Below, one piece after another: positions 2,357 to 61,480 of a DNA stretch of 64,000 bases (within the stretch, counting starts at the first letter, position 1; each line of letters starts with the position of its first letter). The DNA lies in the NCBI GenBank assembly GCA_017467815.1, contig JAFUKI010000077.1, positions 4,797 to 68,796 on the forward strand, written 5' to 3'. The translations under genes were made by a program, and so were the position numbers. The stretch comes from Clostridia bacterium. Its GTDB lineage: Bacteria > Bacillota > Clostridia > Oscillospirales > CAG-272. Under the pieces are notes generated by a model. It ran no database searches, was not told the origin of the DNA, and saw only the letters and a program-made list of their open reading frames with translations.

Positions 2357-2440
2357 TTGGGGAAGGGAGGAAAACTTTTTGCGAAAAAGCTTTCCTCCCT
2401 TCCCCAAACCCCTTCCCACCTTTCAAAAAACTTTGAAAAA
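2357..2440 (+). repeat. Dispersed hairpin repeat, copy 1
   Basis: TTGGGGAAGGGAGGAAA-ACTTTTTGCGAAAAAG-CTTTCCTCCCTTCCCCAA hairpin, then a C-rich linker and TTTCAAAAAACTTTGAAAAA. It starts 10 nt after the ABC-F stop. Confidence 0.9.
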
Positions 2441-2505
2441 TGGGACTGGATTCAGTTTGGTATTATTTATTGACCCAACAATAGTATCTGAACTTCCCTA
2501 CGATA

Positions 2506-2601
2506 CAAGCCCAAACTGTGTAGCCTTCCCCAGCGAGGCAGGTATGCCTCAGGGGAAGGTGGCAGCCTTAAGGCTGACGGATGAGGTGTAACGAACGATT
2601 T
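2506..2601 (+). ncRNA. Conserved ~95-nt structured element, copy 1 (unknown class)
   Basis: Near-identical to 36846-36940. It has nested stems CCTTCCCC/GGGGAAGG around GAGGCA-GGTA-TGCCTC, then CAGCC-TTAA-GGCTG. One stem pair covaries between the two copies. Confidence 0.45.
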
Positions 2602-2653
2602 AATATATTCTGACTGGGCAACTGACCATATCCCCAAAAAAGGAGCAGCAAAC

Positions 2654-3364
2654 ATGAAACGCAAAGCCTTAAAAGCCGCATTTCCCCATACAATACCCAT
2701 ATTTGCCGGATTCTGGTTCCTTGGAATGGCATACGGCATCTACATGAACGTATCCGGCTTTTCCTTCTGGTACCCGCTTGCGATGAGTATCGTAATATTC
2801 GGCGGTTCACTGGAATTTGTAACCGTGTCCATGCTTCTCTCGCCTTTCGCGCCGGTACAGACCTTGCTGGCAGCACTGATGATACAGGCAAGGCACATCT
2901 TTTACGGAATTGCCATGCTGGAAAAATACAAAGGACTCGGCTGGAAACGGTTTTATCTGATTTTCGGAATGTGTGACGAATCCTTTTCCATCAACTGCTC
3001 CGCGGAAATTCCGGAAGGTGTGGACAGAGGATGGTTCTACTTCTTCGTCACCCTGCTGAATCAGCTGTACTGGGTTACCGGTTCCACCATGGGCGGATTT
3101 CTCGGCTCGGTACTGGACTTCAATACGGAAGGACTGGAATTTGTCATGACCGCCATGTTCGTGGTTATCTTCCTGGAACAGCTGCTGAAAGAGAAAAACC
3201 ACAGCACCGCCGTGATCGGTCTTGCCGCATCCGTGGTCTGCCTGGTGATCTTCGGTGCGGATTCCTTCCTGCTGCCCACCATGGCATGCACCCTGCTTCT
3301 GCTGACCGCCTTCCGCAAACCGCTGGAAAAAGCCGGCTTTAAAGGAGAGGAGGATGCCGTATGA
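2654..3364 (+). CDS. azlC: AzlC-family branched-chain amino-acid exporter subunit
   Basis: 236-aa polytopic membrane protein with an AzlC-like sequence. A small AzlD-like partner follows directly. Confidence 0.8.
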   Translation: MKRKALKAAFPHTIPIFAGFWFLGMAYGIYMNVSGFSFWYPLAMSIVIFGGSLEFVTVSMLLSPFAPVQTLLAALMIQARHIFYGIAMLEKYKGLGWKRFYLIFGMCDESFSINCSAEIPEGVDRGWFYFFVTLLNQLYWVTGSTMGGFLGSVLDFNTEGLEFVMTAMFVVIFLEQLLKEKNHSTAVIGLAASVVCLVIFGADSFLLPTMACTLLLLTAFRKPLEKAGFKGEEDAV

Positions 3365-3393
3365 CCCTGACCGAGTAGATTCTGACCATCGCC

Positions 3394-3687
3394 ATGTGCG
3401 TGCTGGGGACGATGGCGACCCGTTTTCTTCCCTTCCTGATATTCGGTGAGAATCGTCCGACACCCCGATACATATCCTTCCTCGGCAAAGCCCTGCCGGC
3501 AGCCGTATTTGCCATGCTGGTGGTCTACTGCCTGAAAGATGTATCCGTCCTGACCGGCAGCCGCGGCATTCCCGAAGCCATCGCCATCGCCGCAACCGTA
3601 CTGATCCACCTGTGGCGGCGGCAGATGCTCCTTTCCGTGGCAGGGGGAACCGTCGTGTATATGCTGCTTGTACAGCTGATTTTCTGA
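3394..3687 (+). CDS. azlD: AzlD-family small membrane protein
   Basis: 97-aa hydrophobic protein. An in-frame ATG at 3361 overlaps the azlC stop (ATGA) but is followed by TAG at 3376-3378 (see findings). Confidence 0.7.
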
Positions 3688-3842
3688 GATTTTGACCAAA
3701 GATCCCGCAAATATGGCAGATCATCCCGGATTTTCTTGCCGCAAACCTCGTAAAATCCATAATATTTGTCATAATTACCAAAAACAAAGCGAAAAGTTCG
3801 TGTAATTTCTCATAAATAAAAGAAAAAAACGAGCCAAAGACC

Positions 3843-3871
3843 TTGATTTCTTTTCGGAAATATGGTAAAAT
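3843..3871 (+). promoter_or_regulatory. Sigma-A type promoter of the S10 operon
   Basis: TTGATT (3843-3848), 17 nt spacer, TAAAAT (3866-3871) with a TGg extended -10. Confidence 0.7.
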
Positions 3872-21208: not shown

Positions 21209-21250
21209 ACACCGGATTCATCAGAGTCCGGTGTTTTTGTTTTCTTTTTT
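21209..21250 (+). terminator. Rho-independent terminator of the ribosomal superoperon
   Basis: ACACCGGA (21209-21216) pairs with TCCGGTGT (21227-21234), followed by a long T-rich tract. Confidence 0.85.
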
Positions 21251-21270: not shown

Positions 21271-21353
21271 GCAGGGGAGGGGGAAACACTTTTTGCGAAA
21301 AAGTATTTCCCCCTCCCCTGCACCCCTCCCTCTTTTCAAAAAACTTCAAAAAA
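21271..21353 (+). repeat. Dispersed hairpin repeat, copy 2
   Basis: GCAGGGGAGGGGGAAA..TTTTTGCGAAAAA..TTTCCCCCTCCCCTGC plus a TTTTCAAAAAACTTCAAAAAA tail. Confidence 0.9.
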
Positions 21354-21509
21354 GGGATTAGCAACAGAAATATTAGATTGATTTAAGGGATGCAGGTTTA
21401 CAAATAACAGTTTTGTGCTCTTTTTCTTAGTTTTTAAAAGTTTTCCTTCCCCCAAAAATTATACTTGCAACAACTCTGCACCCACCCTCTTTAAAAACGA
21501 TGAATATGG

Positions 21510-21538
21510 TTGACATGGGGTGGGGTTTGGAGTATAAT
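21510..21538 (+). promoter_or_regulatory. Consensus sigma-A promoter (GNAT gene)
   Basis: TTGACA (21510-21515), 17 nt spacer, TATAAT (21533-21538). Confidence 0.75.
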
Positions 21539-23345: not shown

Positions 23346-23580
23346 AATGTAACTCCTTAAATTGATCATTCGCTGATAAACCCACTCTCATAACGGGTAA
23401 CCGGGAAAAAAGACAAAAGAATACAATACAGAGTCATCAGCTCATACTAATTATAGCACAATAATGCCGTTTTGAAAAGTTCTTTTCTGTACACTCTCTG
23501 ACTTTTCTATAAACTCCCCAAAATTATGTGCAAGAATATTACGCATGGTGAGGACATACACATAAAAACCATTTCAGATC

Positions 23581-23651
23581 TTTTCAAAGTTTTTGAAAAG
23601 ATAGGGGTTTGGGGGAAGAAAAACTTTTTTCAAAAAGTTTTTCTTCCCCCA
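23581..23651 (-). repeat. Dispersed hairpin repeat, copy 3 (inverted)
   Basis: TGGGGGAAGAAAAACTTTTTTCAAAAAGTTTTTCTTCCCCCA with a TTTTCAAAGTTTTTGAAAAG module. It starts 17 nt after the aroF stop, in gene sense. Confidence 0.9.
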
Positions 23652-23667
23652 AAAAATTAACGATCCC

Positions 23668-36690: not shown

Positions 36691-36775
36691 TGCAGGGGGA
36701 GAGGAAAAACTTTTTGCGAAAAAGTCTTTCCTCTCCCCCTGCACCCCCTCTTCTTTTCAAAAAACTTTGAAAAAA
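36691..36775 (+). repeat. Dispersed hairpin repeat, copy 4
   Basis: TGCAGGGGGAGAGGAAAAACTTTTTGCGAAAAAGTCTTTCCTCTCCCCCTGCA plus a TTTTCAAAAAACTTTGAAAAAA tail. It starts 20 nt after the stop. Confidence 0.9.
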
Positions 36776-36845
36776 GGGGGATTTTTTGTTTTTTGCATAA
36801 ATCAAAATCTATCTGACTTCACTGGTGAAAACTGTACTCCCGCCG

Positions 36846-48863: not shown

Positions 48864-48948
48864 GCAGGGGGATGGAGAAAAACTTTTTGAAAAAAGTCTT
48901 TCTCCATCCCCCTGCACCCCCTTCCTCTTTTCAAAAAACTTTGAAAAA
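48864..48948 (+). repeat. Dispersed hairpin repeat, copy 5 (inside the tail module, antisense to the genes)
   Basis: GCAGGGGGATGGAGAAAAACTTTTTGAAAAAAGTCTTTCTCCATCCCCCTGC plus a TTTTCAAAAAACTTTGAAAAA tail. Confidence 0.9.
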
Positions 48949-48965
48949 GGTTACTGTATAAAGTT

Positions 48966-49667: not shown

Positions 49668-49691
49668 AATGATTCCTTTCTGTGTGTGGTT

Positions 49692-50099: not shown

Positions 50100-50103
50100 A
50101 TCG

Positions 50104-50442: not shown

Positions 50443-50450
50443 AGTACCTC

Positions 50451-50795: not shown

Positions 50796-50804
50796 ATTTC
50801 CTCC

Positions 50805-51143: not shown

Positions 51144-51156
51144 GGCAAATCTCCTT

Positions 51157-52278
51157 TTAACCCATGTAGCGTACAGCCAGCTCAGGATAGAGGGGCATGA
51201 AGCTGTAGAGCACATCCATGGAAAGAATGTCCTTCTTACGGTTGATGTCATAACCGCGTACCACACGGAGGGAGATACCGTTGTGGGTGGTTACATAGGA
51301 TTCCACGCCGGCAGGTGCAGCCAGAGGACGGGAAACGAAGGCGAAGGCATTGGGATGGAAAATCAGGTTGGCTTCGTGGGTAGGCAGGACCTCAACGGTA
51401 CCGTTCAGAATGCCGCTTACGGAAGTGGGCATGATCGGGAAGGTAACGGAGGTGCTTGTAAATTCCACATTGTCGGCGGCGATGACATAAACCACGGAAC
51501 CGTCCTTCTTGGTGATCTTGAGAATATCGCCGAGGTTGATGGTTTTGTCGGGGGCGGAGGAACAGGTCAGGGTCAGGGAAGTACCGGCAAGGGTGGTGAC
51601 GATGATGTTGGCGGAAGAACCGGCGAGGGTACCGGAAACATGGGTGGGTACAGCCTGGCTCATGTAGTTTTCCAGACCGAATACCTTACCGATGGAACCG
51701 GTGCGCAGAGCCTTGGAGGAACCGCACTGATCCGCATTGATAAGCGCCGGAATCTGCTTCAGCTGGCAGGCGGTACGGGGACTCCAGAGAGCGCATCGGT
51801 TGTCGGTGGGAACCCCTGCCTTGTCCAGCGCATAAACGGCTTCGGCGAAATCGCTCAGATCGGACGGAGGTGTACCGGGCGTACCGACCACGGTAGAGGC
51901 AGTGCAGTAAAGCATCATACCGTCTCTGTTGATTTTCTCTGCCAGAGCAGCGGCGGCAGGTTCCAGAAACAGTCTGGTCATGTCATCAAAGCTGCAGGCA
52001 CTTTCGAGGGCGGAAACTTCCACATCCACAGTGGCGATGTTGGCAAGGGGTACCTCTACGGTTTCCTCAACGATGGACTGGGGGCTGATGGTGTCGCCGT
52101 TGAAGAAATCATTGGCGGTCAGCTTTACGGGACGGCGGATCACAACGGTATCCCCCTTCTTGGCGCTCTGGTGGTCCCCCAGATCCTTGTAGACCAGATT
52201 GGGGAATACCAGATTGTCCATCAGTCTGGGCAGGGTTTCTCTTGCGATCTGCTTGGCGGAATATAAACTGTTGTACAT
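51157..52278 (-). CDS. Major capsid protein (P22 gp5-like coat family)
   Basis: 373 aa following the scaffold gene. The N-terminal region is typical of P22-type coat proteins (from memory). Confidence 0.75.
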   Translation of the reverse strand: MYNSLYSAKQIARETLPRLMDNLVFPNLVYKDLGDHQSAKKGDTVVIRRPVKLTANDFFNGDTISPQSIVEETVEVPLANIATVDVEVSALESACSFDDMTRLFLEPAAAALAEKINRDGMMLYCTASTVVGTPGTPPSDLSDFAEAVYALDKAGVPTDNRCALWSPRTACQLKQIPALINADQCGSSKALRTGSIGKVFGLENYMSQAVPTHVSGTLAGSSANIIVTTLAGTSLTLTCSSAPDKTINLGDILKITKKDGSVVYVIAADNVEFTSTSVTFPIMPTSVSGILNGTVEVLPTHEANLIFHPNAFAFVSRPLAAPAGVESYVTTHNGISLRVVRGYDINRKKDILSMDVLYSFMPLYPELAVRYMG

Positions 52279-52317
52279 AAATAATCTCCTTTGTCAGTCA
52301 AGTGTATTGTGTTTGTC

Positions 52318-52740
52318 TCAGAAACGGCGGACGAAGCGGTAGTACTCCGCATCGGTCATGCTTTCCGGGTCGGCAAAGGGAGTGCCGTGGGAAGTGCCGG
52401 TGGCGATCTTCTCCTTATCCCCGGTGTTGTGGAATAAATAGGGATCGCTGACACGGAGCTTGTCCAGCTGTTCGTTCAGACCGTGAATACCGTCGTTGTC
52501 CATGGTAATGGCGGACATATCCAGTACCTTGGCGGCAAGCGACGGATTTTTGGCGCCCATTCTGGTCAGGGCGTACTTGGTTTCGTGTTCGATCTGCATT
52601 TTCTGCAGGTCGGCGGTGTGGTTTTTCTCCATGAGACGGATCTGTTCCTGCAAAGCTGCCACTTCGGGGGAAACATTTTCCTCTGCTTCGGATACCGCAC
52701 CGGTTTCTTCGGCGGCGCCTGTCATGTTGTTTTCTTCCAT
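52318..52740 (-). CDS. Scaffolding protein
   Basis: 140-aa acidic helical protein between portal and capsid. ATG at 52740 lies 10 nt after AAAGGAG. Confidence 0.65.
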   Translation of the reverse strand: MEENNMTGAAEETGAVSEAEENVSPEVAALQEQIRLMEKNHTADLQKMQIEHETKYALTRMGAKNPSLAAKVLDMSAITMDNDGIHGLNEQLDKLRVSDPYLFHNTGDKEKIATGTSHGTPFADPESMTDAEYYRFVRRF

Positions 52741-52778
52741 GTGCAAAAATCTCCTTTCTGATCGGCATATTATCCGGC

Positions 52779-54152
52779 TCAGATACCGTTATGCCATTTT
52801 CTTTTGAATTCTTCCGCGGACAGAAGTCCGGCTTCCACTTCGCGCAGATCCCGGCTTCTTTCGGATTCCGTATCCACGAAATAGCTGTCGTCATACCGTA
52901 CAGCCACAGGGGTCGTGCTGTCCATGGGCAGGCGGAGTATGTATTCCCCCAGCCACAGAACCGGTCTTACGATGCCGTACAGAAATGCGGTCATGTTCTG
53001 CTGATGCTTGCTCAGATTCTGCCGCATATCCTGCCGTTCTCCCATGTACTGGGTGGCGGTAAGCTGTGCTTTGCCCTGTACGCCGGAGAACAGATAATGC
53101 CTTGTCCCCAGACCGCACCGGAAGGACAGATAATCCAGCTGTGCCTGCAGGGCATCACGGTTTTCCTCGGAACGGAGACTGGGATTGTGTTCGGTGATCA
53201 TGGGCGTTTCCGCCAGATCCCCGTCGCCGATGGTTACAAACAGCTGCTGCGCCACATCGTCCGGGGTGTACAGATTCCCTTCGCTGTCCCGGTTGACCAA
53301 GGACTGGTTGATGAATACCTTCTTGCCGCCCAGTTTCAGGTCACGGCAGAAATTGTTGAATGCCAGATCCACACCCTTCAGACAGTCGATGGCATCGGCA
53401 AAAATGGACTGTCCCAGACCGCATCCCTCGTCCACGGCGTTGTGGATGTTGGGGGTCAGAATGCTGAAGAAGGGGTACGGACAGCCGGTGCGGATCTCTC
53501 TCGGCGGCATTTTGGGGTATTTGACCTCCGTCAGCCTGCCGCCGTTTTCTTCCGCGTAATAATGGTTGCGGATCACATACCCGTCGTCTTCTCTGGTGTG
53601 GATCTCCACATAGAGTGCCTTTTCTCCGCGGGTACGGATTTCGGAAATGAATGCCGCCTCCGTGATCCTGCCTTCCTCCACGGAAATGGGCAGAATATGT
53701 CCCGCATCCACAAAGTCGAAGGAGAGGGAGAGGGGCATCTCAGCCGCTTCGGTCAGATTGCCGCACCCGACGGGCAGACCGTGGACACGCAGCAGACAGG
53801 CACCGCTTCCCAGAGCAAAAGCCTTTTCCACCATATGGTTGCATCTCCGCCAGAAATCGGTCTGGGAGAGAAGGATCTGCAGCCATTTTTCCGCGGCAGG
53901 ATCGGCAACCTGAAGATAGGTCTTGTCGTTGAACAGCAGGGAAGCCCAGTCTTCGCATACCTTTTTCGCCATGTGCAGACGGTACATTTCCCGCTTGACC
54001 GGACGTCCGAAGGAAGCGTTTTCCCAGTATTCGTGGAAGGTATGCTCCTTCCCCTGCCACCAGCTCTGCCAGATGTCGATCATGCGGTAGATCCCCGTGC
54101 CCGCTGTGCAGCCGTACTGCTGACCGATCAGGTCTAAAATTTCGTTTCGCAT
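52779..54152 (-). CDS. Portal protein
   Basis: 457 aa, immediately after the large terminase. Confidence 0.8.
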   Translation of the reverse strand: MRNEILDLIGQQYGCTAGTGIYRMIDIWQSWWQGKEHTFHEYWENASFGRPVKREMYRLHMAKKVCEDWASLLFNDKTYLQVADPAAEKWLQILLSQTDFWRRCNHMVEKAFALGSGACLLRVHGLPVGCGNLTEAAEMPLSLSFDFVDAGHILPISVEEGRITEAAFISEIRTRGEKALYVEIHTREDDGYVIRNHYYAEENGGRLTEVKYPKMPPREIRTGCPYPFFSILTPNIHNAVDEGCGLGQSIFADAIDCLKGVDLAFNNFCRDLKLGGKKVFINQSLVNRDSEGNLYTPDDVAQQLFVTIGDGDLAETPMITEHNPSLRSEENRDALQAQLDYLSFRCGLGTRHYLFSGVQGKAQLTATQYMGERQDMRQNLSKHQQNMTAFLYGIVRPVLWLGEYILRLPMDSTTPVAVRYDDSYFVDTESERSRDLREVEAGLLSAEEFKRKWHNGI

Positions 54153-54178
54153 AAATTGTTCCTTTCTGGTAAAATTGA

Positions 54179-55492
54179 TCAGACTTTCCCCATATACCGT
54201 TCAATGGCATATTCCATAGCATCCAGAATGTCTATGTCCGAGGTAAAGTCGTCTTTCCGCCTGTCCGCGCCTTCCGTGTCCTCCCAGACCGCCTCCGCAA
54301 GTCCGGCAGCCAGCTTCGGACAATCCGGAGTGAGATGAAAACGACCTGCACTCATCAGTCCGTTCACGAAAGCGATACGATCGGTGATGGGACGCTTGGC
54401 ACAGTCGGATACAATGAGTCCCTCACTCCCGGGGATGGACCGGCGGAGACCGTTGATCAGATACTGTGCTTCGCTGTCGCAGAAAACATAACGGATGGGC
54501 AGTCCGGGGTATTTCTCATGCAATGCGGCGAGAAAGGCGAGGAATTCTCTGTTGATGCGCCCCGGATCAATATCCCCTTTGTTCCCCTGTACTGCCTTTT
54601 CACCAATGGCGATCACACCGCCGGAGAGGGGAAATCCCACAGCGGCAAACACGGTTTTGGAACGGTTTCCGCCGAAGTCCACGCCGATGTTGCAGAATTT
54701 CATGGGCGGCAGATCCGCTGTCTGCAGCAGGAATTTCTCCGGTGCATCGGCAAAACTGCGGTAGATCAGCCCTTCAGCCGCACAGCGCTGTCCCAGTATA
54801 TCCCGACGGTACCATACGGATGCTTTGTCGTACTGCGCCTCGATTTCCGCAAGACGCTCTTTCGTGATCACGGGATTGTCCCGGATGGTGAAATGGGCGT
54901 AATTGCAGAAACCGGGGGAAGTGTCGGCAGTGTAGGGATCAATGTACTGCCGGTAAATGAGGGCGGAGGGGGAAGTGGGGTTCAGATCCCAGAAGATCTT
55001 CCGTCGGCGGGCGGCAAGGGTTCGGTTGAAGGCCTCTTGAATAAAGCTGTCGTGGTGGTGGTTGATCTCCGTTGCGAGCCACATTCCATACGAGTTTCCG
55101 CGGATCCGCTTGTAGGCATCCGCATTTTTTCCGCCGGCGAACAGAACCACCTTCTCACCGTTTTTCGTCTGAATACGCAGACATTCGTTATCCTTATACC
55201 GACCCCAGGTACACCTGCCTCTGAAAATCCTTTCCAGACCCAGACCGTTGCAGTCCCCCAGATTGAGTTTGGCATTGCCGATGGTGGAACCGGATGCCAG
55301 ATGAATCCGATCCGGCGTTTCCTCCAGTGCGGCGGCAAAGACAAATACATTGTCCACCGTCTTCCCGGCACGTACCGCCCCTTCGGCAATATTTATGGTG
55401 CAGTCCAGAGCACGCCGCATATACCTGCGATGCTTTTCCCCGAAACAATACCGGGGATCTTCATATTGCCCGGACTTTTCCGCATCCGTCAT
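54179..55492 (-). CDS. Terminase large subunit (PBSX family)
   Basis: 437 aa with a Walker A-like AVRAGKT and a family-typical sequence including the C-terminal nuclease region. Confidence 0.9.
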   Translation of the reverse strand: MTDAEKSGQYEDPRYCFGEKHRRYMRRALDCTINIAEGAVRAGKTVDNVFVFAAALEETPDRIHLASGSTIGNAKLNLGDCNGLGLERIFRGRCTWGRYKDNECLRIQTKNGEKVVLFAGGKNADAYKRIRGNSYGMWLATEINHHHDSFIQEAFNRTLAARRRKIFWDLNPTSPSALIYRQYIDPYTADTSPGFCNYAHFTIRDNPVITKERLAEIEAQYDKASVWYRRDILGQRCAAEGLIYRSFADAPEKFLLQTADLPPMKFCNIGVDFGGNRSKTVFAAVGFPLSGGVIAIGEKAVQGNKGDIDPGRINREFLAFLAALHEKYPGLPIRYVFCDSEAQYLINGLRRSIPGSEGLIVSDCAKRPITDRIAFVNGLMSAGRFHLTPDCPKLAAGLAEAVWEDTEGADRRKDDFTSDIDILDAMEYAIERYMGKV

Positions 55493-55527
55493 ATTTCCGC
55501 TTCCTTTCCGTTTGCTTCATTCTCCCA

Positions 55528-55908
55528 TCATTCTTCCTGACGGAATACCTCCTCCCGCAGTGCCGCAATTTCCGTACTGGTTTCCGCCGCCGCAAATCCC
55601 TGAGCCGGATTCAGACGTACATCCTTCCACAGCTCAAAATACAGCTTGATTGCCGGAATGCTGCCGTCGCGTGCCAGAGAGAGCAGATGCTCCCAGACTT
55701 CCGCGGCGTACATCCCGGCATATTCTCTCGCCAGCTGCACCACAGCCGAACCGAATGCCGCATCCCTGAGCCATGCCAACATATCCGCTTCGGGCACATC
55801 CGTACGGGACAGGGCTTTCTCGATCTGTTCCCCGGCTGTCTGTCCTCTGAAGCTGTTTTCGATGACCGCATTGGCAGTGTCAATTTGTTTTTCCGTCGTA
55901 TCGCTCAC
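55528..55908 (-). CDS. Putative terminase small subunit / HTH packaging protein
   Basis: 126 aa directly upstream of terL. The start is uncertain because GTG at 55908 abuts the AAAGGAGG SD. Confidence 0.45.
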   Translation of the reverse strand: MSDTTEKQIDTANAVIENSFRGQTAGEQIEKALSRTDVPEADMLAWLRDAAFGSAVVQLAREYAGMYAAEVWEHLLSLARDGSIPAIKLYFELWKDVRLNPAQGFAAAETSTEIAALREEVFRQEE

Positions 55909-55924
55909 CTCCTTTCGTGCCTAT

Positions 55925-55953
55925 AGTATAACATCCCGAACATTTGTTTGTCA
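55925..55953 (-). promoter_or_regulatory. Candidate late-operon promoter
   Basis: Minus strand reads TGACAA (55953-55948), 17 nt spacer, TGtTATACT (-10 at 55930-55925). Confidence 0.5.
55938..55949. promoter_or_regulatory. LexA-like box (GAAC-N4-GTTT variant) in the late-promoter spacer
   Basis: + strand reads GAACATTTGTTT, one mismatch from GAAC-N4-GTTC. Confidence 0.4.
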
Positions 55954-56092
55954 TCCCACAAAAATACCGGCAGCGTGCAGGAAAAAGTAGCAGAAAAGTA
56001 TCAAAAAAGTGGTATCCCCCTCAAAAAATGCATAAAAAAAGACCGCCTGACATACAAGCAGCCTAAATAAATCCATATTCCTATTCCATATA

Positions 56093-56158
56093 CCCCTTTT
56101 GAAGTTTTTTGAAAAGAGGGAGGGGGGAGAATCGCTTCGCAAATCTCCCTCCCCCTTC
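56093..56158 (-). repeat. Dispersed hairpin repeat, copy 6 (degenerate)
   Basis: CCCTTTTGAAGTTTTTTGAAAAG module plus a GAGGGAGGGGGGAGA..TCTCCCTCCCCC hairpin with a divergent loop. It starts 5 nt after the regulator stop. Confidence 0.7.
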
Positions 56159-56162
56159 TAAA

Positions 56163-56552
56163 TCAAACCGTCCGACCAAATAAAGCCAAAGTAAACCGGC
56201 TGTATGCTCTGCGTCGGATTCTGTAGAAGGAACTGCGTTCTACGTGCAGTTCTTCGCATATATCCTCAATGCTCGCACGGGAGGATTTGGTGGCATAGGC
56301 AGTGAGAATGGCTTTCTCATCCGGTTCCAGGGTAGCCAGAGCAAACTCCAGTGCCCGTACCTTTTTTGCCAGCCGACGGCGGTTGTCCTCACATTCCGGC
56401 GATCCGTCATCCCACATATTCTGCAGTGCATTTCTCAGATATGGCAGTTCCTGCAGCAGAGAAATCGCCTGTTTCTGTAATGTCAACGCCTGATCCGTTT
56501 TTCTTGTTTTCATCGTTTCTTTGGTTGCGTTTGTCTTAATGGTAGTGCTCAT
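56163..56552 (-). CDS. ArpU/RinA-like phage late transcriptional activator (sigma-70 region-4-like HTH)
   Basis: 129 aa. The C-terminal ..SIEDICEELHVERSSFYRIRRRAYSRFTLAL is typical of ArpU/RinA/DUF1492-type regulators. It is the first gene of the cluster. Confidence 0.6.
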   Translation of the reverse strand: MSTTIKTNATKETMKTRKTDQALTLQKQAISLLQELPYLRNALQNMWDDGSPECEDNRRRLAKKVRALEFALATLEPDEKAILTAYATKSSRASIEDICEELHVERSSFYRIRRRAYSRFTLALFGRTV

Positions 56553-57881: not shown

Positions 57882-60815
57882 ATGGATATTATCAAGACGA
57901 TCAAAGATAATGCCTACGCCTATGCCAGTATGCCTTTTTGGAGCTGGAACGATAAGCTGGAGGAAGAAGAACTGCGCCGCCAGATCCGGGATATGAAACG
58001 GCTGGGCATGAGCGGATTCTTCATGCACGCAAGATGCGGTCTGGAAACGGAATATATGTCCGACGAATGGTTCGATTGTATCAAAATCTGTATCGACGAA
58101 GCAAAAAAGCAGGGGATGGAAGCATGGGCATATGATGAAAACGGCTGGCCCAGCGGATTTGCCGGCGGAAAACTGCTGCAGGATAAGAGGAAACAGGCGG
58201 TAGGTCTCCACTGCGAAGTTGTGAACGCATTCCCGGCAGAGGAAGATACCCTTGCCGTATACACCAGAAATCCCGACGGAACCTTCAACCGGGTGACAGA
58301 GGACTGCGGCGCGGCAGAATATTACCACATCTACCGCCGGTATTCCAACAGCTACGTGGACACACTGGATGGGAATATCACCAGGGAGTTTCTGGAATTG
58401 ACCCACGAAGAATACAAAAAGCGCATCCCGGCAGAGGATTTCGGCAAGGCCATGCCCGGATTCTTCACCGACGAACCCAACTACTGGCGCGAGGGAAAAA
58501 CGTATTCCAATACCATGCCGGAAATTTTTAAGAAAACTTACGGCTATGATATGTTCCCCCACCTGCCGGCACTGTTCTACGAATACGAAGGTGCGGAGAA
58601 GTTCCTGTTCGATTACAACAAACTGGCACACGATCTGTTTATCGCCAACTGGATCAAACCGGTCTATGAGTGGTGCGAAAACAACGGCGTACAGCTGACC
58701 GGACACGGCTGGGAAGAAGCCAACCTGCGAGAACAGATGATGAGTGTCGGCGGTATCATGGAATTCTACGAATACGAACATATTCCGGGAATGGATTACC
58801 TGTGCCGCAGACTGACCAACGATATCGGTCCGAAGCAGATTGGCTCCGCGTGCGCACAGCTGGGCAAAAAGATGGTACTGTCGGAAATGTTTGCCTGCTG
58901 CGGCTGGGACGTATCCCCCAGAGAACTGAAGCGTATTGCGGACATCCAGTATGTGGGCGGTGTAAACCGTACCTGCCAGCATCTGTACCCCTACAGTGAA
59001 CGCGGTCAGCGGAAACGTGACTATCCCCTTCATTACTCCGAACACAGTCCGTGGCAGGACAGCATGGTGGATTTCAATACCCACTACGATCATTTGGGCG
59101 CGGCACTGGCGCAGGGGGAAGAATATGTCTCCGTACTGGTGATCCACCCCATCCACGGCGCATATATGAAGTACCGCAGAGAACTTGATGATATTCTGGA
59201 GATCGACGGTCAGATGGACAAATTGTCCGACCTGCTGGGTGAACACCAGATCCCCTACCATTACGGGGACGAAAACCTGATGAAGCGCTACGCTTCCGTA
59301 GAAGGAAACCGCATCCGTGTGGGAAAATGCGTGTACGATTATGTGGTGATTCCCTTCACCTATTCTCTGGACAGCGAAACCTGCGCGATGCTGCGGGAAT
59401 ATATGGCAGCCGGCGGTAAGGTATGGCTGTTTGCCGATACACCGGCGCATATTGACGGGGCAAAAGCGGATATGAGCTGGCTGAAGGCAAATATTTCCTT
59501 TGAGGAACTGCTGGAATCCAGAGATATACCCATTGCCGGTGCGGACGGAAAGAACGTGCCTGCCCTGCGGAAGATGACCCGTGTGCTGGAAGACGGCAGC
59601 AAGCTGATGCTTGTGACCAATCTGACCGCGGATGAACAGGACGGCGTTGCCATTTTCTTCCCCGGTGCCGGAACGGTTGCCGAAATTGATATTGATACAC
59701 TGGAAGTCCGTCCGGTATACGGCGAAAAGACAGCGGAAGGCATAACCGTGTATGCGAATTTTGACGACACACAAAGCCATATGTACAGTATAGACGGTGA
59801 AGCGGCGGAGATCCTGCCCGGCAAACCCACCCGTCCGGCGGCATACATTCCCATTCCTGCCAGAGCCGTATTTGCCGAAAAACCGGAGAATATGATGACG
59901 CTGGATATGGTATCCCTTGCCAAAGGTGACGGGGAATACGACGAGCCCCTGTCCCTGTACGGCGTAAAGGACGGTCTGCTGCGGGAGCAGTACGAAGGGG
60001 ATATCCGGCTGAAATATACCTTTACGGCGGCGGAAGGATTCGATCCGGAGAAGCTGGATCTGGTACTGGAACCCATGGGACAGAAGTCCGTGACCATCAA
60101 CGGGACAGAAGTGCAGGCTCTGCCCGGTGCCTGTTGGTTTGACCGCAGCTTCCTTGTATATCCCATTGGGGAATATGTGAAGGCTGGGGAGAATGAAGTG
60201 GTGGTCACCATGCACTACTACCAGAGACCGTATGTGTACTATGTTCTGTATAATGCAGACGGCGGGGCACTGCGGAACAGCCTGACCTTTGATACGGAAA
60301 TTGAATGTGCCTATCTGGTGGGCGACTTCTCCGTGATCACGGATGCACCCTTTACACCGGATATCCGGAACAGTCTGGTCTACAACGGTACCTTCGTTCT
60401 GGACAGCCAGAAGCCGGATGTACGCACGGACGATGTGGTACAGGACGGATATACCTTCTTCGGCGGCAAACTGAAGCTGGATATTCCCTATACATGGACG
60501 CCCGGCGCACCCACCGTACTGAACCTGAACGGACGCTTTGCAACCTGTCAGATATTCGTAAACGGTACATACGCAGGAGAAATGATGTTCTCACGCACCA
60601 TGGATCTGTCCGCGTACCTGAAAGAAGGGGAAAACACCATCCGCTTCGTTATGTGCAACGCATGGCGCAACCTGATGGGTCCCCACCACAACCTCGACCC
60701 CGAATGCACTGTACTTGGCCCCTATGAATTCACCTCCGAAAATAACTGGAACGGTCGCGAATGCCCCGACTTCCTTGACCGCTACTCCTTTGTGCGGTAT
60801 GGATTGGTTATGTGA
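57882..60815 (+). CDS. Large glycoside hydrolase-like protein (family not assigned)
   Basis: 977 aa with no signal peptide. The N-terminal PFWSWNDKL..GFFMHARCGL..WAYDENGWPSGF region is typical of a TIM-barrel glycosidase group with jelly-roll C-terminal domains (from memory). Confidence 0.6.
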   Translation: MDIIKTIKDNAYAYASMPFWSWNDKLEEEELRRQIRDMKRLGMSGFFMHARCGLETEYMSDEWFDCIKICIDEAKKQGMEAWAYDENGWPSGFAGGKLLQDKRKQAVGLHCEVVNAFPAEEDTLAVYTRNPDGTFNRVTEDCGAAEYYHIYRRYSNSYVDTLDGNITREFLELTHEEYKKRIPAEDFGKAMPGFFTDEPNYWREGKTYSNTMPEIFKKTYGYDMFPHLPALFYEYEGAEKFLFDYNKLAHDLFIANWIKPVYEWCENNGVQLTGHGWEEANLREQMMSVGGIMEFYEYEHIPGMDYLCRRLTNDIGPKQIGSACAQLGKKMVLSEMFACCGWDVSPRELKRIADIQYVGGVNRTCQHLYPYSERGQRKRDYPLHYSEHSPWQDSMVDFNTHYDHLGAALAQGEEYVSVLVIHPIHGAYMKYRRELDDILEIDGQMDKLSDLLGEHQIPYHYGDENLMKRYASVEGNRIRVGKCVYDYVVIPFTYSLDSETCAMLREYMAAGGKVWLFADTPAHIDGAKADMSWLKANISFEELLESRDIPIAGADGKNVPALRKMTRVLEDGSKLMLVTNLTADEQDGVAIFFPGAGTVAEIDIDTLEVRPVYGEKTAEGITVYANFDDTQSHMYSIDGEAAEILPGKPTRPAAYIPIPARAVFAEKPENMMTLDMVSLAKGDGEYDEPLSLYGVKDGLLREQYEGDIRLKYTFTAAEGFDPEKLDLVLEPMGQKSVTINGTEVQALPGACWFDRSFLVYPIGEYVKAGENEVVVTMHYYQRPYVYYVLYNADGGALRNSLTFDTEIECAYLVGDFSVITDAPFTPDIRNSLVYNGTFVLDSQKPDVRTDDVVQDGYTFFGGKLKLDIPYTWTPGAPTVLNLNGRFATCQIFVNGTYAGEMMFSRTMDLSAYLKEGENTIRFVMCNAWRNLMGPHHNLDPECTVLGPYEFTSENNWNGRECPDFLDRYSFVRYGLVM

Positions 60816-60828
60816 TTTGGATTGTTTT

Positions 60829-60893
60829 GCGGGGGAGAACTTTTTTGGAAAAAAGTTCTCCCCCGCACCCCCTTTCAAAAAACTTTGAAAAAA
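60829..60893 (+). repeat. Dispersed hairpin repeat, copy 7
   Basis: GCGGGGGAGAACTTTTTTGGAAAAAAGTTCTCCCCCGC plus a TTTCAAAAAACTTTGAAAAAA tail. It starts 14 nt after the stop. Confidence 0.9.
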
Positions 60894-60950
60894 TTGGGAA
60901 GGGATTTTTGGGCAGAGTGTTTTTGATGTGATAGGATATGTGCAATAGAA

Positions 60951-60993
60951 AAAGGAACTGTCTTTCCGGAATGATGCCGGGGACAGTTCCTTT
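60951..60993. terminator. Bidirectional Rho-independent terminator
   Basis: AAAGGAACTGTC pairs with GACAGTTCCTTT (12 bp), with T-runs on both strands, between convergent genes. Confidence 0.8.
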
Positions 60994-61013
60994 TGGGTGT
61001 TGCCGATCTATAC

Positions 61014-61181
61014 TTAATCCTCGTCGGGATCCTTTTCAAAATCTTCTTTGCTCATGCCGCAGTCCGGGCAGGTAAAGTCATCGGGGAGATCTTCAAAAAG
61101 TGTACCCGGATCAATACCATTGTCGGGATCGCCGGCTTTTTCATCGTAAACCCATCCGCAGATCATGCAAACATACTTCAT
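61014..61181 (-). CDS. Rubredoxin
   Basis: [19 protein letters not shown] with two CxxC pairs (55 aa). The track start at 61232 lies upstream. Confidence 0.92.
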
Positions 61182-61414
61182 AGTGATAAGTCCTTTCTTG
61201 ATTTGAATTGTTATGCTGTTTTTTTCACACACCTTTGTGTGTTCAATAGTATATCAAAAGCATCGCGGAAATGCAAGAAGAATAATACCGAATTTTACAG
61301 CAGGTTATTGTACGTATTGCACAATTTTAATAAGACGAATGTCGTATGAGGAGGGGATTATGCGCGCTTTGTTGTTTTTGTGAGTGAAATCACCCATTGT
61401 TCCGGGAACAAGAT

Positions 61415-61480
61415 CCCCTTCTTTCAAAGTTTTTGAAAAGGGGTGTGGGGAGAAACTTTTTTCAAAAAGTTTCTCCCCAC
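61415..61480 (-). repeat. Dispersed hairpin repeat, copy 8 (inverted)
   Basis: TTTCAAAGTTTTTGAAAAG module plus GTGGGGAGAAACTTTTTTCAAAAAGTTTCTCCCCAC. It starts 22 nt after the flippase stop, in gene sense. Confidence 0.9.

What the first reader, a model, noticed from the sequence alone, without database searches (positions are those of the whole stretch)
2357..61480. Family of eight dispersed hairpin repeats with covarying arms, mostly placed just after stop codons
The copies lie at 2357-2440, 21271-21353, 23581-23651, 36691-36775, 48864-48948, 56093-56158 (degenerate), 60829-60893 and 61415-61480. They share one architecture. A G-rich arm is followed by an A/T core (AAACTTTTTGCGAAAAAGT or ..TTTTTGAAAAAA..) and then the complementary C-rich arm. 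Next comes a short C-rich linker and a second small palindrome, TTTCAAAAAACTTTGAAAAA. Arm sequences differ between copies (GGAAGGGAGG, GGGGAGGGGG, GGGGGAAG, GGGGGAGAGG, GGGGGATGGAG, GGGGGAG, GGGGAG). Within each well-preserved copy the two arms stay perfectly complementary, so the hairpin itself is conserved. Six copies begin 5-22 nt after a stop codon in the sense of the upstream gene. One follows the canonical rplQ terminator, and one is antisense inside the phage-like cluster. None has a clear U-tract right after the long hairpin. Possibilities include REP/BIME-like elements, 3' mRNA stabilisers, atypical terminators, or MITE-like DNA mobilised by a REP-associated transposase. Spurious ORFs in the track pick up peptides such as ..FQKTLKKG.. 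from them.
Basis: seen in the sequence. Interest (0 to 1): 0.6.

Follow-up and report, generated by a model that had tools for sequence, protein, structure and literature searches.

The report
Hairpin-plus-mirror-tail repeats after stop codons
The eight repeats are real members of a large, apparently undescribed repeat family of uncultured gut-type Clostridia: a long hairpin followed by a tail that mirrors one arm (the layout of a three-stranded fold), placed about 12 bases after stop codons in the direction of the gene, which gives a testable natural case for whether such folds do anything in bacteria.

Summary
A covariance model finds exactly the eight reported copies in the window and nothing else. 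The hairpin arms co-vary: 98% of cells are paired in 83 distinct copies, with 123 compensatory cells against 33 expected.

The family is widespread in Clostridia MAGs, metagenomes and one related phage. Its 5' end lies a median of 11.5 nt after the stop codon of a same-strand gene (54 same strand vs 16 opposite; 23 convergent vs 1 divergent spacers).

This purine arm - pyrimidine arm - mirror tail order is the architecture of a potential intrastrand triplex: class III on the sense strand, class I on the other. The closest precedent is E. coli BoxC/PIT/TM-ECO, but class, clade, size and orientation rule all differ.

My best guess is a boundary element at the 3' end of transcription units. Whether it acts in RNA or DNA is open, and chemistry and mismatch patterns lean towards DNA.

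No transposase, empty site or target duplication was found. I rate it a new variant of a known kind.

The parts
2357..2449 (+). Copy 1, sense, 10 nt after the stop of the ABC-F ATPase gene (377-2347)
   Evidence: Hairpin 1 is 2357-2407, with 5' arm GGGGAAGGGAGGAAAAC. The mirror tail is 2409-2424 (CCCCTTCCCACCTTTC), with 14/16 canonical triplet positions. The small palindrome is 2421-2439 and hairpin 2 runs to 2449. (59.4 bits). No other terminator-like site lies before azlC at 2654.
21271..21357 (+). Copy 2, sense, directly after the canonical rplQ terminator
   Evidence: Hairpin 1 is 21271-21321 (GCAGGGGAGGGGGAAAC...). The tail is 21323-21337 (CCCCTCCCTCTTTTC), with 12/13 triplet positions. 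Hairpin 2 runs to 21357. (58.6 bits). The orthologous site in other strains holds the element with different, still paired arms and a matching tail.
21209..21244 (+). Canonical intrinsic terminator of the rplQ operon. This is context, not part of the repeat.
   Evidence: 11-bp stem followed by TTTTTGTTTTC.
21470..21538 (+). Remnant of a second element (3' arm and tail only) running into the 12/12 consensus promoter of the GNAT gene (21510-21538)
   Evidence: aaaagttttccttccccc ... gcacccaccctctttaaaaac, then TTGACA-17-TATAAT.
23578..23653 (-). Copy 3, sense, 15 nt after the stop of the DAHP synthase gene (23668-24696, - strand)
   Evidence: Hairpin 1 is 23653-23608. The tail is 23607-23595 (CCCCTATCTTTTC), with 11/13 triplet positions. 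Hairpin 2 runs to 23578. (58.3 bits). The site is polymorphic between strains: full element, tail only, or nothing.
36691..36794 (+). Copy 4, sense, 19 nt after the stop of an ABC ATPase gene (35868-36671), in a convergent spacer
   Evidence: Hairpin 1 is 36691-36743. The tail is 36744-36758 (CCCCCTCTTCTTTTC), with 13/15 triplet positions. Hairpin 2 is 36746-36780, followed by the T-run ATTTTTTGTTTTTTG, which is terminator-like. (55.6 bits).
48864..48950 (+). Copy 5, antisense, between prophage genes on the - strand (48966-49172 and 48440-48832)
   Evidence: Hairpin 1 is 48864-48915 (GCAGGGGGATGGAGAAAAAC...). The tail is 48917-32 (CCCCCTTCCTCTTTTC), with 14/16 triplet positions. (65.3 bits). 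A related phage has only a short degenerate hairpin at this site.
56093..56155 (-). Copy 6, degenerate, sense, 8 nt after the stop of a prophage gene (56163-56552, - strand)
   Evidence: The 5' arm is GGGGGAGGGAGA. The A/T core is replaced and most of the 3' arm is lost, but the tail CCCCCTCCCTCTTTTC is kept, with 12/12 triplet positions. Searches (z -2.3; 41.4 bits). L359 and L362 show the same kind of decay at the rplQ site.
60828..60905 (+). Copy 7, sense, 13 nt after the stop of the GH106-like gene (57882-60815), in a convergent spacer
   Evidence: Hairpin 1 is 60828-60867. The tail is 60868-60876 (CCCCCTTTC), with 8/9 triplet positions. (82.1 bits). A separate hairpin, the terminator of the rubredoxin gene, lies about 45 nt further on.
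61415..61481 (-). Copy 8, sense, 21 nt after the stop of the polysaccharide flippase gene (61502-62908, - strand) and upstream of the rubredoxin gene
   Evidence: Hairpin 1 is 61481-61444. The tail is 61443-61435 (CCCCTTTTC), with 8/9 triplet positions. Hairpin 2 runs to 61415. (70.6 bits). Metagenome assemblies break inside this hairpin.

Best explanation
WHAT IT IS (confidence about 0.85). The eight copies belong to a family of structured intergenic repeats found in uncultured Clostridia. The unit has four parts, in this order:
1. A 15-26 bp hairpin. Its 5' arm is a purine block (a G-run, then an A-run, sometimes more complex). Its 3' arm is the matching pyrimidine block. The top is an A/T palindrome (CTTTTTT-G-AAAAAAG).
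2. A turn of 1-3 nt.
3. A pyrimidine tail that mirrors the 3' arm, so it is parallel-complementary to the purine arm (CCCC..TTTC).
4. AAAAAAC and the rest of a small A/T palindrome.

Purine arm, pyrimidine arm, mirror tail is the architecture of a potential intrastrand triplex: class III on the sense strand and class I on the complementary strand. All three strands change together.

HOW IT WORKS (confidence about 0.4, inferred). It marks the 3' end of transcription units. It lies about 12 nt after the stop codon, which is just outside the footprint of a terminating ribosome. It points the same way as the gene and is usually ahead of, or fused to, the real terminator.

I propose it folds when the region is transcribed. 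The hairpin would form in the 3' UTR, and the hairpin plus third strand would form in the transiently unwound or negatively supercoiled DNA. In that state it would act as a barrier that defines and protects the 3' end: a block to 3'->5' exonucleases as REP hairpins are, and/or a brake on read-through into the next unit.

Shown: the anatomy, the three-way co-variation, the placement and orientation, and the spread of the family. Inferred: that the third strand really docks, in which molecule, and what the effect is on transcripts. The confidence value given for this field (0.45) refers to the whole statement, identity and function together.
For: Census and reality of the copies.

Hairpin co-variation: 98.1% of cells are paired against 86.5% in shuffles. 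9 of 12 model pairs carry changes on both sides. There are 123 compensatory cells against 32.7 expected, and 0 of 500 shuffles reach this.

Mirror tail:
- Tail length tracks arm length (rho 0.89).
- The G-run tracks the C-run (rho 0.59, p 1.6e-6), and the A-run tracks the T-run (rho 0.53).
- The alignment score of each tail to the parallel complement of its own arm is 8.7, against 5.2 for other copies' arms (14 complex arms, permutation p 2e-5).
- A direct-repeat model fails.
- Window copies have 8-14 canonical triplet positions each.
- The mirror continues into the A/T core: every A5 tail goes with a T5 core.
- At one orthologous site (after rplQ) two strain groups carry different arms, each with its own matching tail.

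Placement, from 85 non-redundant copies:
- The upstream gene is on the same strand in 54 cases and opposite in 16 (p 6e-6).
- Convergent spacers 23, divergent 1 (p 3e-6).
- Stop codon to element is a median of 11.5 nt, while element to next feature is about 145 nt.
- Orientation follows the local gene rather than the replication direction. Copies 2(+) and 3(-) lie 2.3 kb apart, and copies 7(+) and 8(-) lie 0.5 kb apart.

Many copies are followed within 10-60 nt by a separate canonical terminator. For copies 1, 3 and 8 no other terminator-like site exists between the co-directional genes.

Precedents: intrastrand triplex repeats exist in bacteria and fold in vitro (PMC4666352). REP-bearing mRNAs are substrates that need RNase R together with PNPase (PMC12320835).
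Against: 3' ends, read-through and stability are therefore untested.

An RNA triplex is chemically doubtful. Natural RNA triple helices are destabilised in cells by two or more consecutive C+.G-C triples (PMC7583470), and this family has runs of 4-6. The A-run part of the tail would need purine-motif triples, which do not form in RNA (PMC4666352).

Stem mismatches on the sense strand are A.C 26 against G.U 12. The antisense strand folds better in 79 of 85 copies. This is the opposite of what selection on the sense transcript alone would give. Both counts have caveats: copies share descent, and G-rich strands pair more easily.

Copy 2 lies after a good terminator, so it is rarely part of the rplQ mRNA. 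Copy 5 and about a third of the copies in tandem spacers are antisense (19 sense against 10 antisense, p 0.14).

In the window's species the tail is also Watson-Crick paired in hairpin 2, which competes with third-strand docking.

The E. coli precedent showed neither promoter nor terminator activity.
Confidence: 0.45

Rival explanations
1. It is a purely DNA-level non-B-DNA element of the BoxC/PIT type. Under negative supercoiling, or when a strand is single-stranded, the palindrome extrudes and the G-rich 5' flank of the complementary strand docks on its own hairpin. The lower stem would use purine-motif triples (G.G-C and A.A-T) and the A/T core would use T.A-T triples, giving an alternate-strand triplex that needs no protonation. 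It would affect supercoiling, polymerase progress or recombination, and it would make its surroundings hypervariable. The transcript would play no role.
For: The chemistry favours the complementary DNA strand, because no C+ is needed (reasoned from the triplet rules in PMC4666352). The A.C mismatches on the sense strand are G.T wobbles on the complementary strand, and the complementary strand folds better in 79 of 85 copies.

Spacers that hold the element are highly variable between close strains. The DAHP site has a full element, a tail only, or nothing. Beside it, a 424-aa gene, an AraC-type gene or nothing is inserted. This matches the instability reported around TM-ECO. Copy 2 lies outside the rplQ transcript.
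Against: A DNA structure with no link to transcription does not predict the strong orientation rule or the 12-nt spacing to the stop codon. TM-ECO shows no strand bias.

No in vivo triplex could be shown even for TM-ECO. In duplex DNA the tail is paired to its complement, so docking costs extra unwinding.
Confidence: 0.3
2. It is a selfish, non-autonomous mobile element that survives where insertions are harmless, namely gene 3' ends. It could be REP-like and moved by a RAYT/IS200-type single-strand transposase that recognises the hairpin plus flank, or it could be a MITE. Structure is kept because the transposase needs it, and the host gets no function from it.
For: There are many copies per genome: 8 in 64 kb here, and 3-4 per 5-10 kb on some contigs. 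Copies sit at unrelated loci in many species, inside a prophage and in a related phage contig. Some sites are polymorphic between strains. Copies 2 and 5 and the L376 copy share the flank TGTTGCATTWA but have different arms. In other genomes the unit sits inside mosaics with other short repeats, as BIMEs do.
Against: No transposase, RAYT or integrase was found among the annotated window genes. No empty site, target-site duplication or terminal inverted repeat was seen. There is no conserved GTAG-like tetranucleotide at the hairpin foot, and no REPIN-like pairs.

Every window copy has different arms, which does not fit recent copying of a master element. A mirror tail cannot be made by any polymerase-based copying, so something must select for it.
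Confidence: 0.15
3. It is an atypical factor-assisted or bipartite intrinsic terminator. The first hairpin pauses RNA polymerase. The second hairpin (tail + small palindrome + G-run), with whatever T-rich stretch follows, releases the transcript. The mirror relation would be a by-product.
For: The position is right after stop codons, in sense orientation and almost never in divergent spacers. Copy 4 has hairpin 2 followed by ATTTTTTGTTTTTTG. Copies 1, 3 and 8 have no other terminator-like site before the next gene, and the next gene after copy 3 has its own promoter-like site.
Against: Hairpin 1 is followed by ACCCC..., not by a U-tract, in all copies. Hairpin 2 is not conserved outside the window's lineage, where the sequence after ...AAAAAACTT is variable. 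Many copies are followed by a separate canonical terminator, and copy 2 is preceded by one, which makes a terminator role redundant there. This reading does not explain the arm-tail co-variation.
Confidence: 0.15
4. There is no triplex. The conserved single-stranded C-rich tail (ACCCCUUUC, similar to the anti-Shine-Dalgarno sequence) and the A-run are a binding site for a protein or an RNA, for example Hfq-type A-rich binding or pairing with G-rich ribosome-binding sites. The hairpin only presents this site.
For: The tail is the most conserved part of the family, with invariant TTTC-AAAAA(A)C-TT, and it has no pairing partner in most genomes. On its own, the A/T palindrome resembles a promoter-upstream motif that sits 4-5 nt before TTGACA in many Firmicutes.
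Against: A fixed binding site would be constant. Here the C/T pattern of the tail changes in step with the purine arm of the same copy. A symmetric protein would read direct or inverted repeats, not mirror repeats (inference).
Confidence: 0.1

Closest known systems
BoxC / PIT (potential intrastrand triplex) elements = TM-ECO of E. coli and other Proteobacteria (Hoyne/Maher 2000; Holder et al. 2015, PMC4666352)
   Same: Both are dispersed, strictly intergenic, G/C-rich repeats in which three consecutive blocks on one strand can form a hairpin plus a third strand. A triplex class on one strand implies the partner class on the other. The surrounding spacers are unusually variable between close strains (searches compared).
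   Different: The sequences are unrelated, and the TM-ECO consensus has 0 matches in the window. TM-ECO is class II (Y-R-R'), 37 nt long, with 9-nt stems and 3-6 nt loops. This family is class III/I. Its purine and pyrimidine blocks are separated by a base-paired A/T palindrome that the tail also mirrors, so the potential triplex has 14-24 positions and switches strand.

TM-ECO shows no orientation bias and was found in Proteobacteria. This family is tied to stop codons in the sense orientation and occurs in Clostridia. The paper never mentions Clostridia or Firmicutes. With its 1-6 nt loop limit, the ITxF search would probably not have detected this family.
REP / BIME elements (repetitive extragenic palindromes) and their RAYT transposases
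   Same: Both are abundant intergenic hairpins at gene 3' ends, often between convergent genes. Both sit in 3' UTRs, where such hairpins block 3' exonucleases. In some genomes they form mosaics with other short motifs. From my own recollection, not checked here: REPs within about 15 nt of a stop codon can also interfere with translation termination in E. coli (Liang, Rudd and Deutscher 2015).
   Different: The stems here are longer (40-53 nt hairpins). There is no conserved foot tetranucleotide, and the copies are single rather than paired or clustered. The arms differ in every copy. There is an added mirror tail. No RAYT was seen in the window.
H-DNA (mirror-repeat homopurine/homopyrimidine tracts)
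   Same: The 3' arm plus the tail is a pyrimidine mirror repeat around a 1-3 nt centre, which is the sequence requirement for H-DNA.
   Different: H-DNA does not need the upstream purine arm on the same strand. Here the purine partner is supplied in cis as a hairpin arm, which points to folding of a single strand.
Triple-helical RNA stability elements (ENE of PAN/MALAT1 type)
   Same: It is a structure at the 3' end of a transcript in which a third strand could lie in the major groove and hinder 3'->5' decay.
   Different: ENEs clamp an A-rich 3' tail with U-rich loops (U.A-U triples). This element would need long C+.G-C runs, which are disfavoured at neutral pH. No bacterial mRNA example is known to me.
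Intrinsic (Rho-independent) terminators
   Same: Both have a GC-clamped hairpin just after a gene. Hairpin 2 of copy 4 has a T-run.
   Different: Hairpin 1 has no U-tract in any copy. Many copies are followed by a separate canonical terminator, and copy 2 is preceded by one.

Membership tests
Potential intrastrand triplex motif, class III/I (definition of Hoyne 2000 / ITxF, PMC4666352) | Three consecutive blocks on one strand, in the order purine - pyrimidine (Watson-Crick) - pyrimidine (Hoogsteen) | tested here: met
   The order R-Y-Y' is seen in all 8 window copies and in 56 unique family members.
Potential intrastrand triplex motif, class III/I (definition of Hoyne 2000 / ITxF, PMC4666352) | The third block is a mirror of the pyrimidine block (parallel to the purine block) and gives canonical C.G-C / T.A-T triplets over at least 6-8 positions with at most one mismatch | tested here: met
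   Window copies have 8-14 canonical positions, which is 85-100% of the purine block. The relation is specific to each copy (permutation p 2e-5). Copies 1, 3, 4 and 5 have two irregularities (a mismatch or indel), so they exceed the strict one-mismatch rule.
Potential intrastrand triplex motif, class III/I (definition of Hoyne 2000 / ITxF, PMC4666352) | Short loops (1-6 nt in ITxF, 0-10 nt in Hoyne) between the blocks | tested here: inconclusive
   The turn between the 3' arm and the tail is 1-3 nt, which meets the rule. The purine and pyrimidine blocks are separated by a 15-27 nt A/T palindrome. That palindrome is itself paired and closes with a 1-4 nt loop. So the rule is met for the whole stem but not for the homopurine part alone.
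Potential intrastrand triplex motif, class III/I (definition of Hoyne 2000 / ITxF, PMC4666352) | The isolated strand actually folds into a triplex (CD, melting, NMR) | not testable with these tools
   The folding tools model Watson-Crick and wobble pairs only.
BoxC / PIT / TM-ECO | Consensus 5'-CCCTCNCCC N3-6 GGGNGAGGG N3 GGGNGAGGG-3' | tested here: not met
   0 matches in the window on either strand.
BoxC / PIT / TM-ECO | Intergenic with no bias in strand orientation | tested here: not met
   The elements are intergenic (78 of 85 copies), but they are strongly oriented with the upstream gene (54 against 16, p 6e-6).
REP / BIME with RAYT | An imperfect palindrome of 20-40 nt with a conserved tetranucleotide (GTAG-like) at its foot | tested here: not met
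   The hairpins are 40-53 nt. The bases at the foot vary and co-vary as pairs (tc/ga, tt/aa, gc/gc, cc/gg, ct/ag), and no conserved flank tetranucleotide is seen.
REP / BIME with RAYT | Copies occur in inverted pairs or clusters (REPIN/BIME) | tested here: not met
   All eight window copies are single. The nearest two, copies 7 and 8, lie 520 nt apart with a gene between them. Mosaics with other motifs do exist in other genomes.
REP / BIME with RAYT | A RAYT (IS200/IS605-like Y1 transposase) gene is present in the genome | not testable with these tools
   Only 64 kb of the genome is in hand, and none was found among the window genes scanned.
MITE | Terminal inverted repeats and a target-site duplication | tested here: not met
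   The inverted repeat is internal and the tail is on one side only, so the two ends are unrelated. No duplication was seen at the sites compared. However, no clean empty site was found, so the duplication test is weak.
Intrinsic terminator | A GC-rich hairpin followed at once by a U-tract | tested here: not met
   Hairpin 1 is followed by (A)CCCC in every copy. The scan calls none of the sense-strand elements a terminator. Only hairpin 2 of copy 4 has a T-run.
Intrinsic terminator | Transcripts end there | not testable with these tools
Any Rfam family | A match at the family's gathering score | tested here: not met
   0 matches in the whole window.

The most novel reading that the evidence does not exclude
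The element may be a natural, selected, alternate-strand intramolecular triplex of 14-24 base triads. The lower stem would be read in one triplex motif and the A/T core in the other. It would form on one strand during transcription and act as an orientation-specific boundary of transcription units in Clostridia. That would be the first intrastrand triplex repeat with a demonstrable cellular role. In the RNA version it would be the first triple-helical 3'-end element of bacterial mRNAs.
Probability: 0.2. Interest if true: 0.85.

Novelty: new variant of a known kind. Interest (0 to 1): 0.62.

Why it matters
Potential intrastrand triplex repeats have been known in E. coli since the 1990s. They fold in vitro, yet no function, orientation rule or in vivo structure has been shown for them (PMC4666352).

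This family has three-way co-variation, including at one fixed orthologous site. That is the kind of evolutionary evidence normally taken as proof that a fold is under selection. It also follows a strict positional rule: about 12 nt after stop codons, in the gene's direction.

Together these features make the question of whether bacterial triplex motifs do anything directly testable, using reporters, compensatory three-strand mutants and 3'-end mapping.

There are practical consequences too. The family is frequent in gut and anaerobe Clostridia MAGs. It breaks assemblies, seeds spurious ORFs, and marks gene ends, so a model of it is useful for annotation.

Tried and rejected
It returned mostly chance hits. 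It did yield four family members, and it showed that the palindrome alone precedes TTGACA boxes in many Firmicutes.

2. The viral scan with an A/T-only pattern returned only chance hits in AT-rich giant-virus contigs.

3. I suspected that a specific gene follows the element, because of a conserved '...tgtgcagattt...'. This was rejected. The downstream ORFs are unrelated, and the motif belongs to various downstream hairpins.

4. I suspected that contigs sharing the flanks AGTCGCTGACGCTCGAG / CGCTTCG were one orthologous locus. This was rejected because the upstream genes differ, so it is a mosaic repeat.

5. An apparent 66-nt empty site for copy 8 turned out to be a scaffold N-gap.

6. Look-ups of AzlC, the ABC ATPase, the flippase and rubredoxin returned only near-identical strains, so they gave no further filled/empty comparisons.

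7. Related phages gave no clean empty site.

8. A small-peptide reading of the unit was rejected. The apparent TTG-initiated ORF in copy 4 is not in a conserved frame in copy 1 (read directly).

9. A direct-repeat or alternative Watson-Crick pairing explanation for the tail was rejected.

10. G-quadruplex and i-motif readings were rejected because there are too few tracts on either strand (read from the sequence).

11. A first crude ORF-based context count was noisy because of antisense shadow ORFs. It was replaced by codon-usage-scored gene calls.

Full report
OBSERVATION. Reading the eight stated places shows the same unit each time. The small palindrome TTTCAAAAAACTTTGAAAA occurs 8 times with up to 3 mismatches, against 0.02 expected. 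Five copies are on the + strand and three on the - strand. A covariance model (R1) was built from 56 non-identical family members (alignment A1) and run over the window with filters off. It returns exactly these eight at 41-82 bits (E <= 2.5e-8), together with their weaker reverse-strand shadows. The next hit has 16.5 bits. Rfam has no match in the window.

SURROUNDINGS. The window is about 51% G+C. It carries an ABC-F gene, azlCD, the S10-spc-alpha ribosomal operon ending in rplQ, a GNAT gene, shikimate-pathway genes, an amino-acid ABC transporter, DUF1934, a prophage (Gp15-like protein, terminase and others), a GH106-like gene, rubredoxin and a polysaccharide flippase. It is nearly identical to an ENA metagenome contig. 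Family members from named genomes are all uncultured Clostridia/Eubacteriales from animal guts, and metagenome hits include human gut and sediment. No transposase, RAYT or integrase was found among the genes scanned.

ANATOMY. In the sense orientation the unit is built as follows.
- Hairpin 1 comes first. A foot of 1-3 variable pairs is followed by a purine block on the 5' arm (a G-run then an A-run, more complex in the window) paired to the matching pyrimidine block. The top is an A/T palindrome, C-T5-7 / A5-8-G, with a 1-4 nt loop.
- After a turn of 1-3 nt comes a pyrimidine tail, CCCC(..)TTTC.
- Then comes AAAAA(A)C-TT(T).
- In the window's lineage a GAAAA..GGG stretch follows. It pairs back with the tail to give hairpin 2.

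ViennaRNA folds each window copy as two adjacent hairpins. MFE is -39 to -56 kcal/mol and z is -4.6 to -8.8. Degenerate copy 6 gives -30 kcal/mol and z -2.3. After hairpin 2, copy 4 has ATTTTTTGTTTTTTG, which is a terminator-like end.

THE FAMILY ELSEWHERE. A metagenome scan used a pattern that fixed only the right half of the core, one CCCC and the start of the palindrome. The consensus is nnGGGG(G)AAAACTTTTTTGAAAAAAAGTTTTCCCC(C)nn-A-CCCC(C)TTTCAAAAAACTT. Some contigs carry 3-4 copies in 5-10 kb. Across 71 sources the model finds 84 copies at E <= 1e-9. One related phage contig also carries a full copy. None of four diagnostic strings of the repeat occurs in the searchable literature.

HAIRPIN CO-VARIATION. 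On the model-based alignment of 83 distinct copies, 98.1% of cells form standard pairs (shuffles 86.5%). 9 of 12 pairs have changes on both sides. There are 123 compensatory cells (shuffles 32.7), and the covariation score is 0.36 against 0.147. No shuffle out of 500 reaches these values, and all slid-partner controls are worse. Full stems average 17.6 bp. One caveat applies. In palindromes, template-switch ('quasipalindrome') mutation can also copy a change from one arm to the other, so this result alone does not prove selection. That caveat is my inference from general knowledge.

THE TAIL MIRRORS THE ARM. The 'linker' is not a spacer. Written 5'->3', it is the reverse of the 3' arm, which means it is the parallel complement of the purine arm.

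| Source | Purine arm | Tail |
|---|---|---|
| Copy 1 | GGGGAAGGGAGGAAAA | CCCCTTCCCACC-TTT |
| Copy 5 | GGGGGATGGAGAAAAA | CCCCCTTCCTC-TTTT |
| Copy 4 | GGGGGAGAGGAAAAA | CCCCCTCTTC-TTTT |
| L332 | GGGGAGGAAGGAGAA | CCCCACCAACCTTT |

Over 56 unique copies, arm and tail lengths correlate (rho 0.89). G-run against C-run gives rho 0.59 (p 1.6e-6), and A-run against T-run gives rho 0.53. I aligned each tail to the parallel complement of each arm. A tail's own arm scores 7.5, against 4.25 for other copies' arms (31 unique pairs, permutation p 5e-5). For the 14 complex arms the scores are 8.7 against 5.2 (p 2e-5). A direct-repeat (antiparallel) model scores below zero and shows no own-versus-other difference (p 0.11).

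Window copies have 14/16, 12/13, 11/13, 13/15, 14/16, 12/12, 8/9 and 8/9 canonical triplet positions. The mirror continues past the purine block. The tail's C-A(5-6)-C mirrors the G-A(6-7) of the core, and all five A5 tails go with T5 cores. No polymerase-based process makes mirror repeats, so this relation needs selection on a fold or on something that reads it (inference).

The same relation is seen evolving at a fixed locus. After the rplQ terminator, the window and L356 have GCAGGGGAGGGGGAAAC... with tail CCCCTCCCTCTTTTC. The L354 strain group has CCGGGGGAGGGAGAGAAAC... with tail CCCCCTCCTTCTTTTC. L359 and L362 have a decayed copy that lost the 3' arm but kept the tail, as window copy 6 did.

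PLACEMENT. Gene calls were scored by codon usage and applied to 85 non-redundant model hits.
- The gene on the 5' side is on the same strand in 54 cases and on the other strand in 16 (p 6e-6).
- Convergent spacers hold 23 copies and divergent spacers hold 1 (p 3e-6).
- Tandem spacers hold 19 sense and 10 antisense copies (p 0.14).
- Seven copies fall inside called ORFs.
- The stop codon lies a median of 11.5 nt before the element, while the next feature lies about 145 nt after it.

So in convergent spacers the element hugs the gene it is co-oriented with. The 16 'opposite' cases lie only 5-31 nt from a supposed gene start, which suggests shadow-ORF miscalls, so the real bias may be stronger.

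In the window, orientation flips with the local gene within 0.5-2.3 kb (copies 2 and 3, copies 7 and 8). It therefore follows transcription, not replication. Many copies are followed within 10-60 nt by a separate GC-rich hairpin, often with a T-run. A strict filter finds this in 13 of 66 copies, and more are visible by eye. Copy 2 is preceded by the rplQ terminator and followed by a 12/12 promoter. Copies 1, 3 and 8 have no other terminator-like site before the next co-directional gene.

MOBILITY. The 3' end of the DAHP synthase gene holds a full element in the window and L356. In the L354 group it holds only the tail module plus a canonical terminator. In L355 and L359 it holds nothing. The flanks do not align, so there are no boundaries or duplications to read. 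The neighbouring spacer holds a 424-aa ORF, an AraC-type gene or nothing, depending on the strain. An apparent empty site for copy 8 was an assembly gap, and contigs end inside the hairpin. Related phages give no clean empty site either. Window copies 2 and 5 and the phage copy in L376 share the flank TGTTGCATTWA while their arms differ. In other genomes the unit is embedded in mosaics with other short repeats. The family has clearly spread, but the mechanism is not visible here.

WHICH MOLECULE FOLDS? Purine arm, pyrimidine arm and mirror pyrimidine tail make a class III potential intrastrand triplex. The complementary strand is then class I (classes as defined in PMC4666352).

Pyrimidine-motif triplexes can form in RNA, and the orientation rule puts this version in the mRNA. 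Three observations count against an RNA triplex:
- Runs of 4-6 C+.G-C triples are disfavoured at neutral pH. Two or more consecutive ones destabilise natural RNA triple helices in cells (PMC7583470). The A-run would also need purine-motif triples, which RNA does not form.
- Stem mismatches on the sense strand are A.C 26 against G.U 12.
- The antisense strand folds better in 79 of 85 copies, by a mean of 3.45 kcal/mol.

On the complementary DNA strand, all triads would be G.G-C, A.A-T and T.A-T, which are pH-independent. The third strand would switch from the purine motif on the lower stem to the pyrimidine motif on the A/T core without changing direction. That is an alternate-strand triplex, which I infer from the textbook triplet rules. 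I therefore regard DNA as at least as likely as RNA for any third-strand docking. The hairpin itself would form in both molecules.

MECHANISM. The best-supported reading is a structured element at the 3' end of transcription units. It is placed just beyond the reach of the terminating ribosome, usually before or merged with the terminator. It would act as a barrier for 3' exonucleases, as REP hairpins do (REP mRNAs need RNase R together with PNPase, PMC12320835), and/or for read-through transcription. The third strand would reinforce or regulate the fold. I put about 0.85 on the identity of the element and about 0.4 on this function. The rivals are a purely DNA-level non-B element of the BoxC/PIT type (0.3), a selfish mobile repeat (0.15), an atypical terminator (0.15) and a protein/RNA-binding tail without a triplex (0.1). 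They are not mutually exclusive.

COMPARISON WITH WHAT IS KNOWN. The closest known kind is BoxC/PIT/TM-ECO. It shares the concept of a dispersed intergenic triplex-capable repeat and the hypervariable surroundings. It differs in sequence, class, size, clade and, above all, in having no orientation bias. REP/BIME elements share the niche but not the defining features. This is not a canonical terminator, a MITE, an ENE or any Rfam family. I rate it a new variant of a known kind.

LIMITS. There are no transcript data. Only 64 kb of the genome is in hand. Copies are related by descent, so the p-values are indicative only. Triplex formation cannot be computed with the tools available.

Noticed in passing
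Loci L015, L018, L019, L026, L027, L040, L046, L049, L054, L062, L088, L093, L094, L101: The bare motif TTTCAAAAAACTTTAAAAA, without any hairpin, sits 4-5 nt upstream of a TTGACA box in many Firmicutes. It therefore looks like a common UP-element-like promoter-upstream sequence. The tail of the repeat shares it, but in the window copies a G-run stands where the -35 box would be.
   Followed up: partly
window 22095-23369 (- strand), and the spacer between the GNAT gene (21570-22046) and the DAHP synthase gene (23668-24696): This is a hypervariable spot between close strains. The window and L356 have a 424/416-aa ORF with no Pfam match. L355 has an AraC-type gene there instead. The L354 group has neither.
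   Followed up: partly
window 21470-21538: A remnant of a second element (3' arm and tail only) runs into the perfect TTGACA-17-TATAAT promoter of the GNAT gene. In the L354 strains the full element ends 30 nt before an equally good promoter.
   Followed up: partly
L235, L254, L262, L269, L295, L323, L341, L350 (and L315, L326, L353): In other genomes the element is embedded in a larger mosaic at unrelated loci. One to three tandem units of AGTCGCTGACGCTCGAG-like sequence lie upstream, and a CGCTTCG / CGCGCTTCGCG mini-hairpin lies downstream. A canonical terminator often follows.
   Followed up: partly
L376:80-260, and window 21258-21270 and 48851-48863: Next to its copy of the element, a related phage contig has 4-5 repeats of TAA(C/A)TGCAAC ahead of a promoter-like site, which looks operator-like. 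The same motif (TGTTGCATTWA) directly precedes window copies 2 and 5.
   Followed up: no
Stems of window copies 1, 2, 4 and 5, and of L244, L253, L314, L329 and L354: An A.C mismatch recurs at nearly the same stem position (..AAAAC / GTCTT..) in several subfamilies. It would be a G.T wobble on the other strand, or a protonated A+.C wobble on this one.
   Followed up: partly
L369 (N-run) and L371 (contig end), at window 61444-61481: Metagenome assemblies break or are gapped exactly inside hairpin 1 of copy 8. These repeats limit contig length in such genomes.
   Followed up: no
window about 43300-56550: A prophage-like block on the - strand holds a Gp15-like protein, a large terminase, a portal-size ORF and a DUF1492 sigma-like gene. 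It contains two family copies: copy 5 (antisense) and copy 6 (decayed). Its boundaries and integrase were not determined.
   Followed up: partly
window 61014-61181 (- strand): A 55-aa rubredoxin gene lies between copies 8 and 7. Its terminator (about 60950-60995) serves the convergent spacer. The 118-aa + strand ORF listed there (60993-61349) is spurious.
   Followed up: yes
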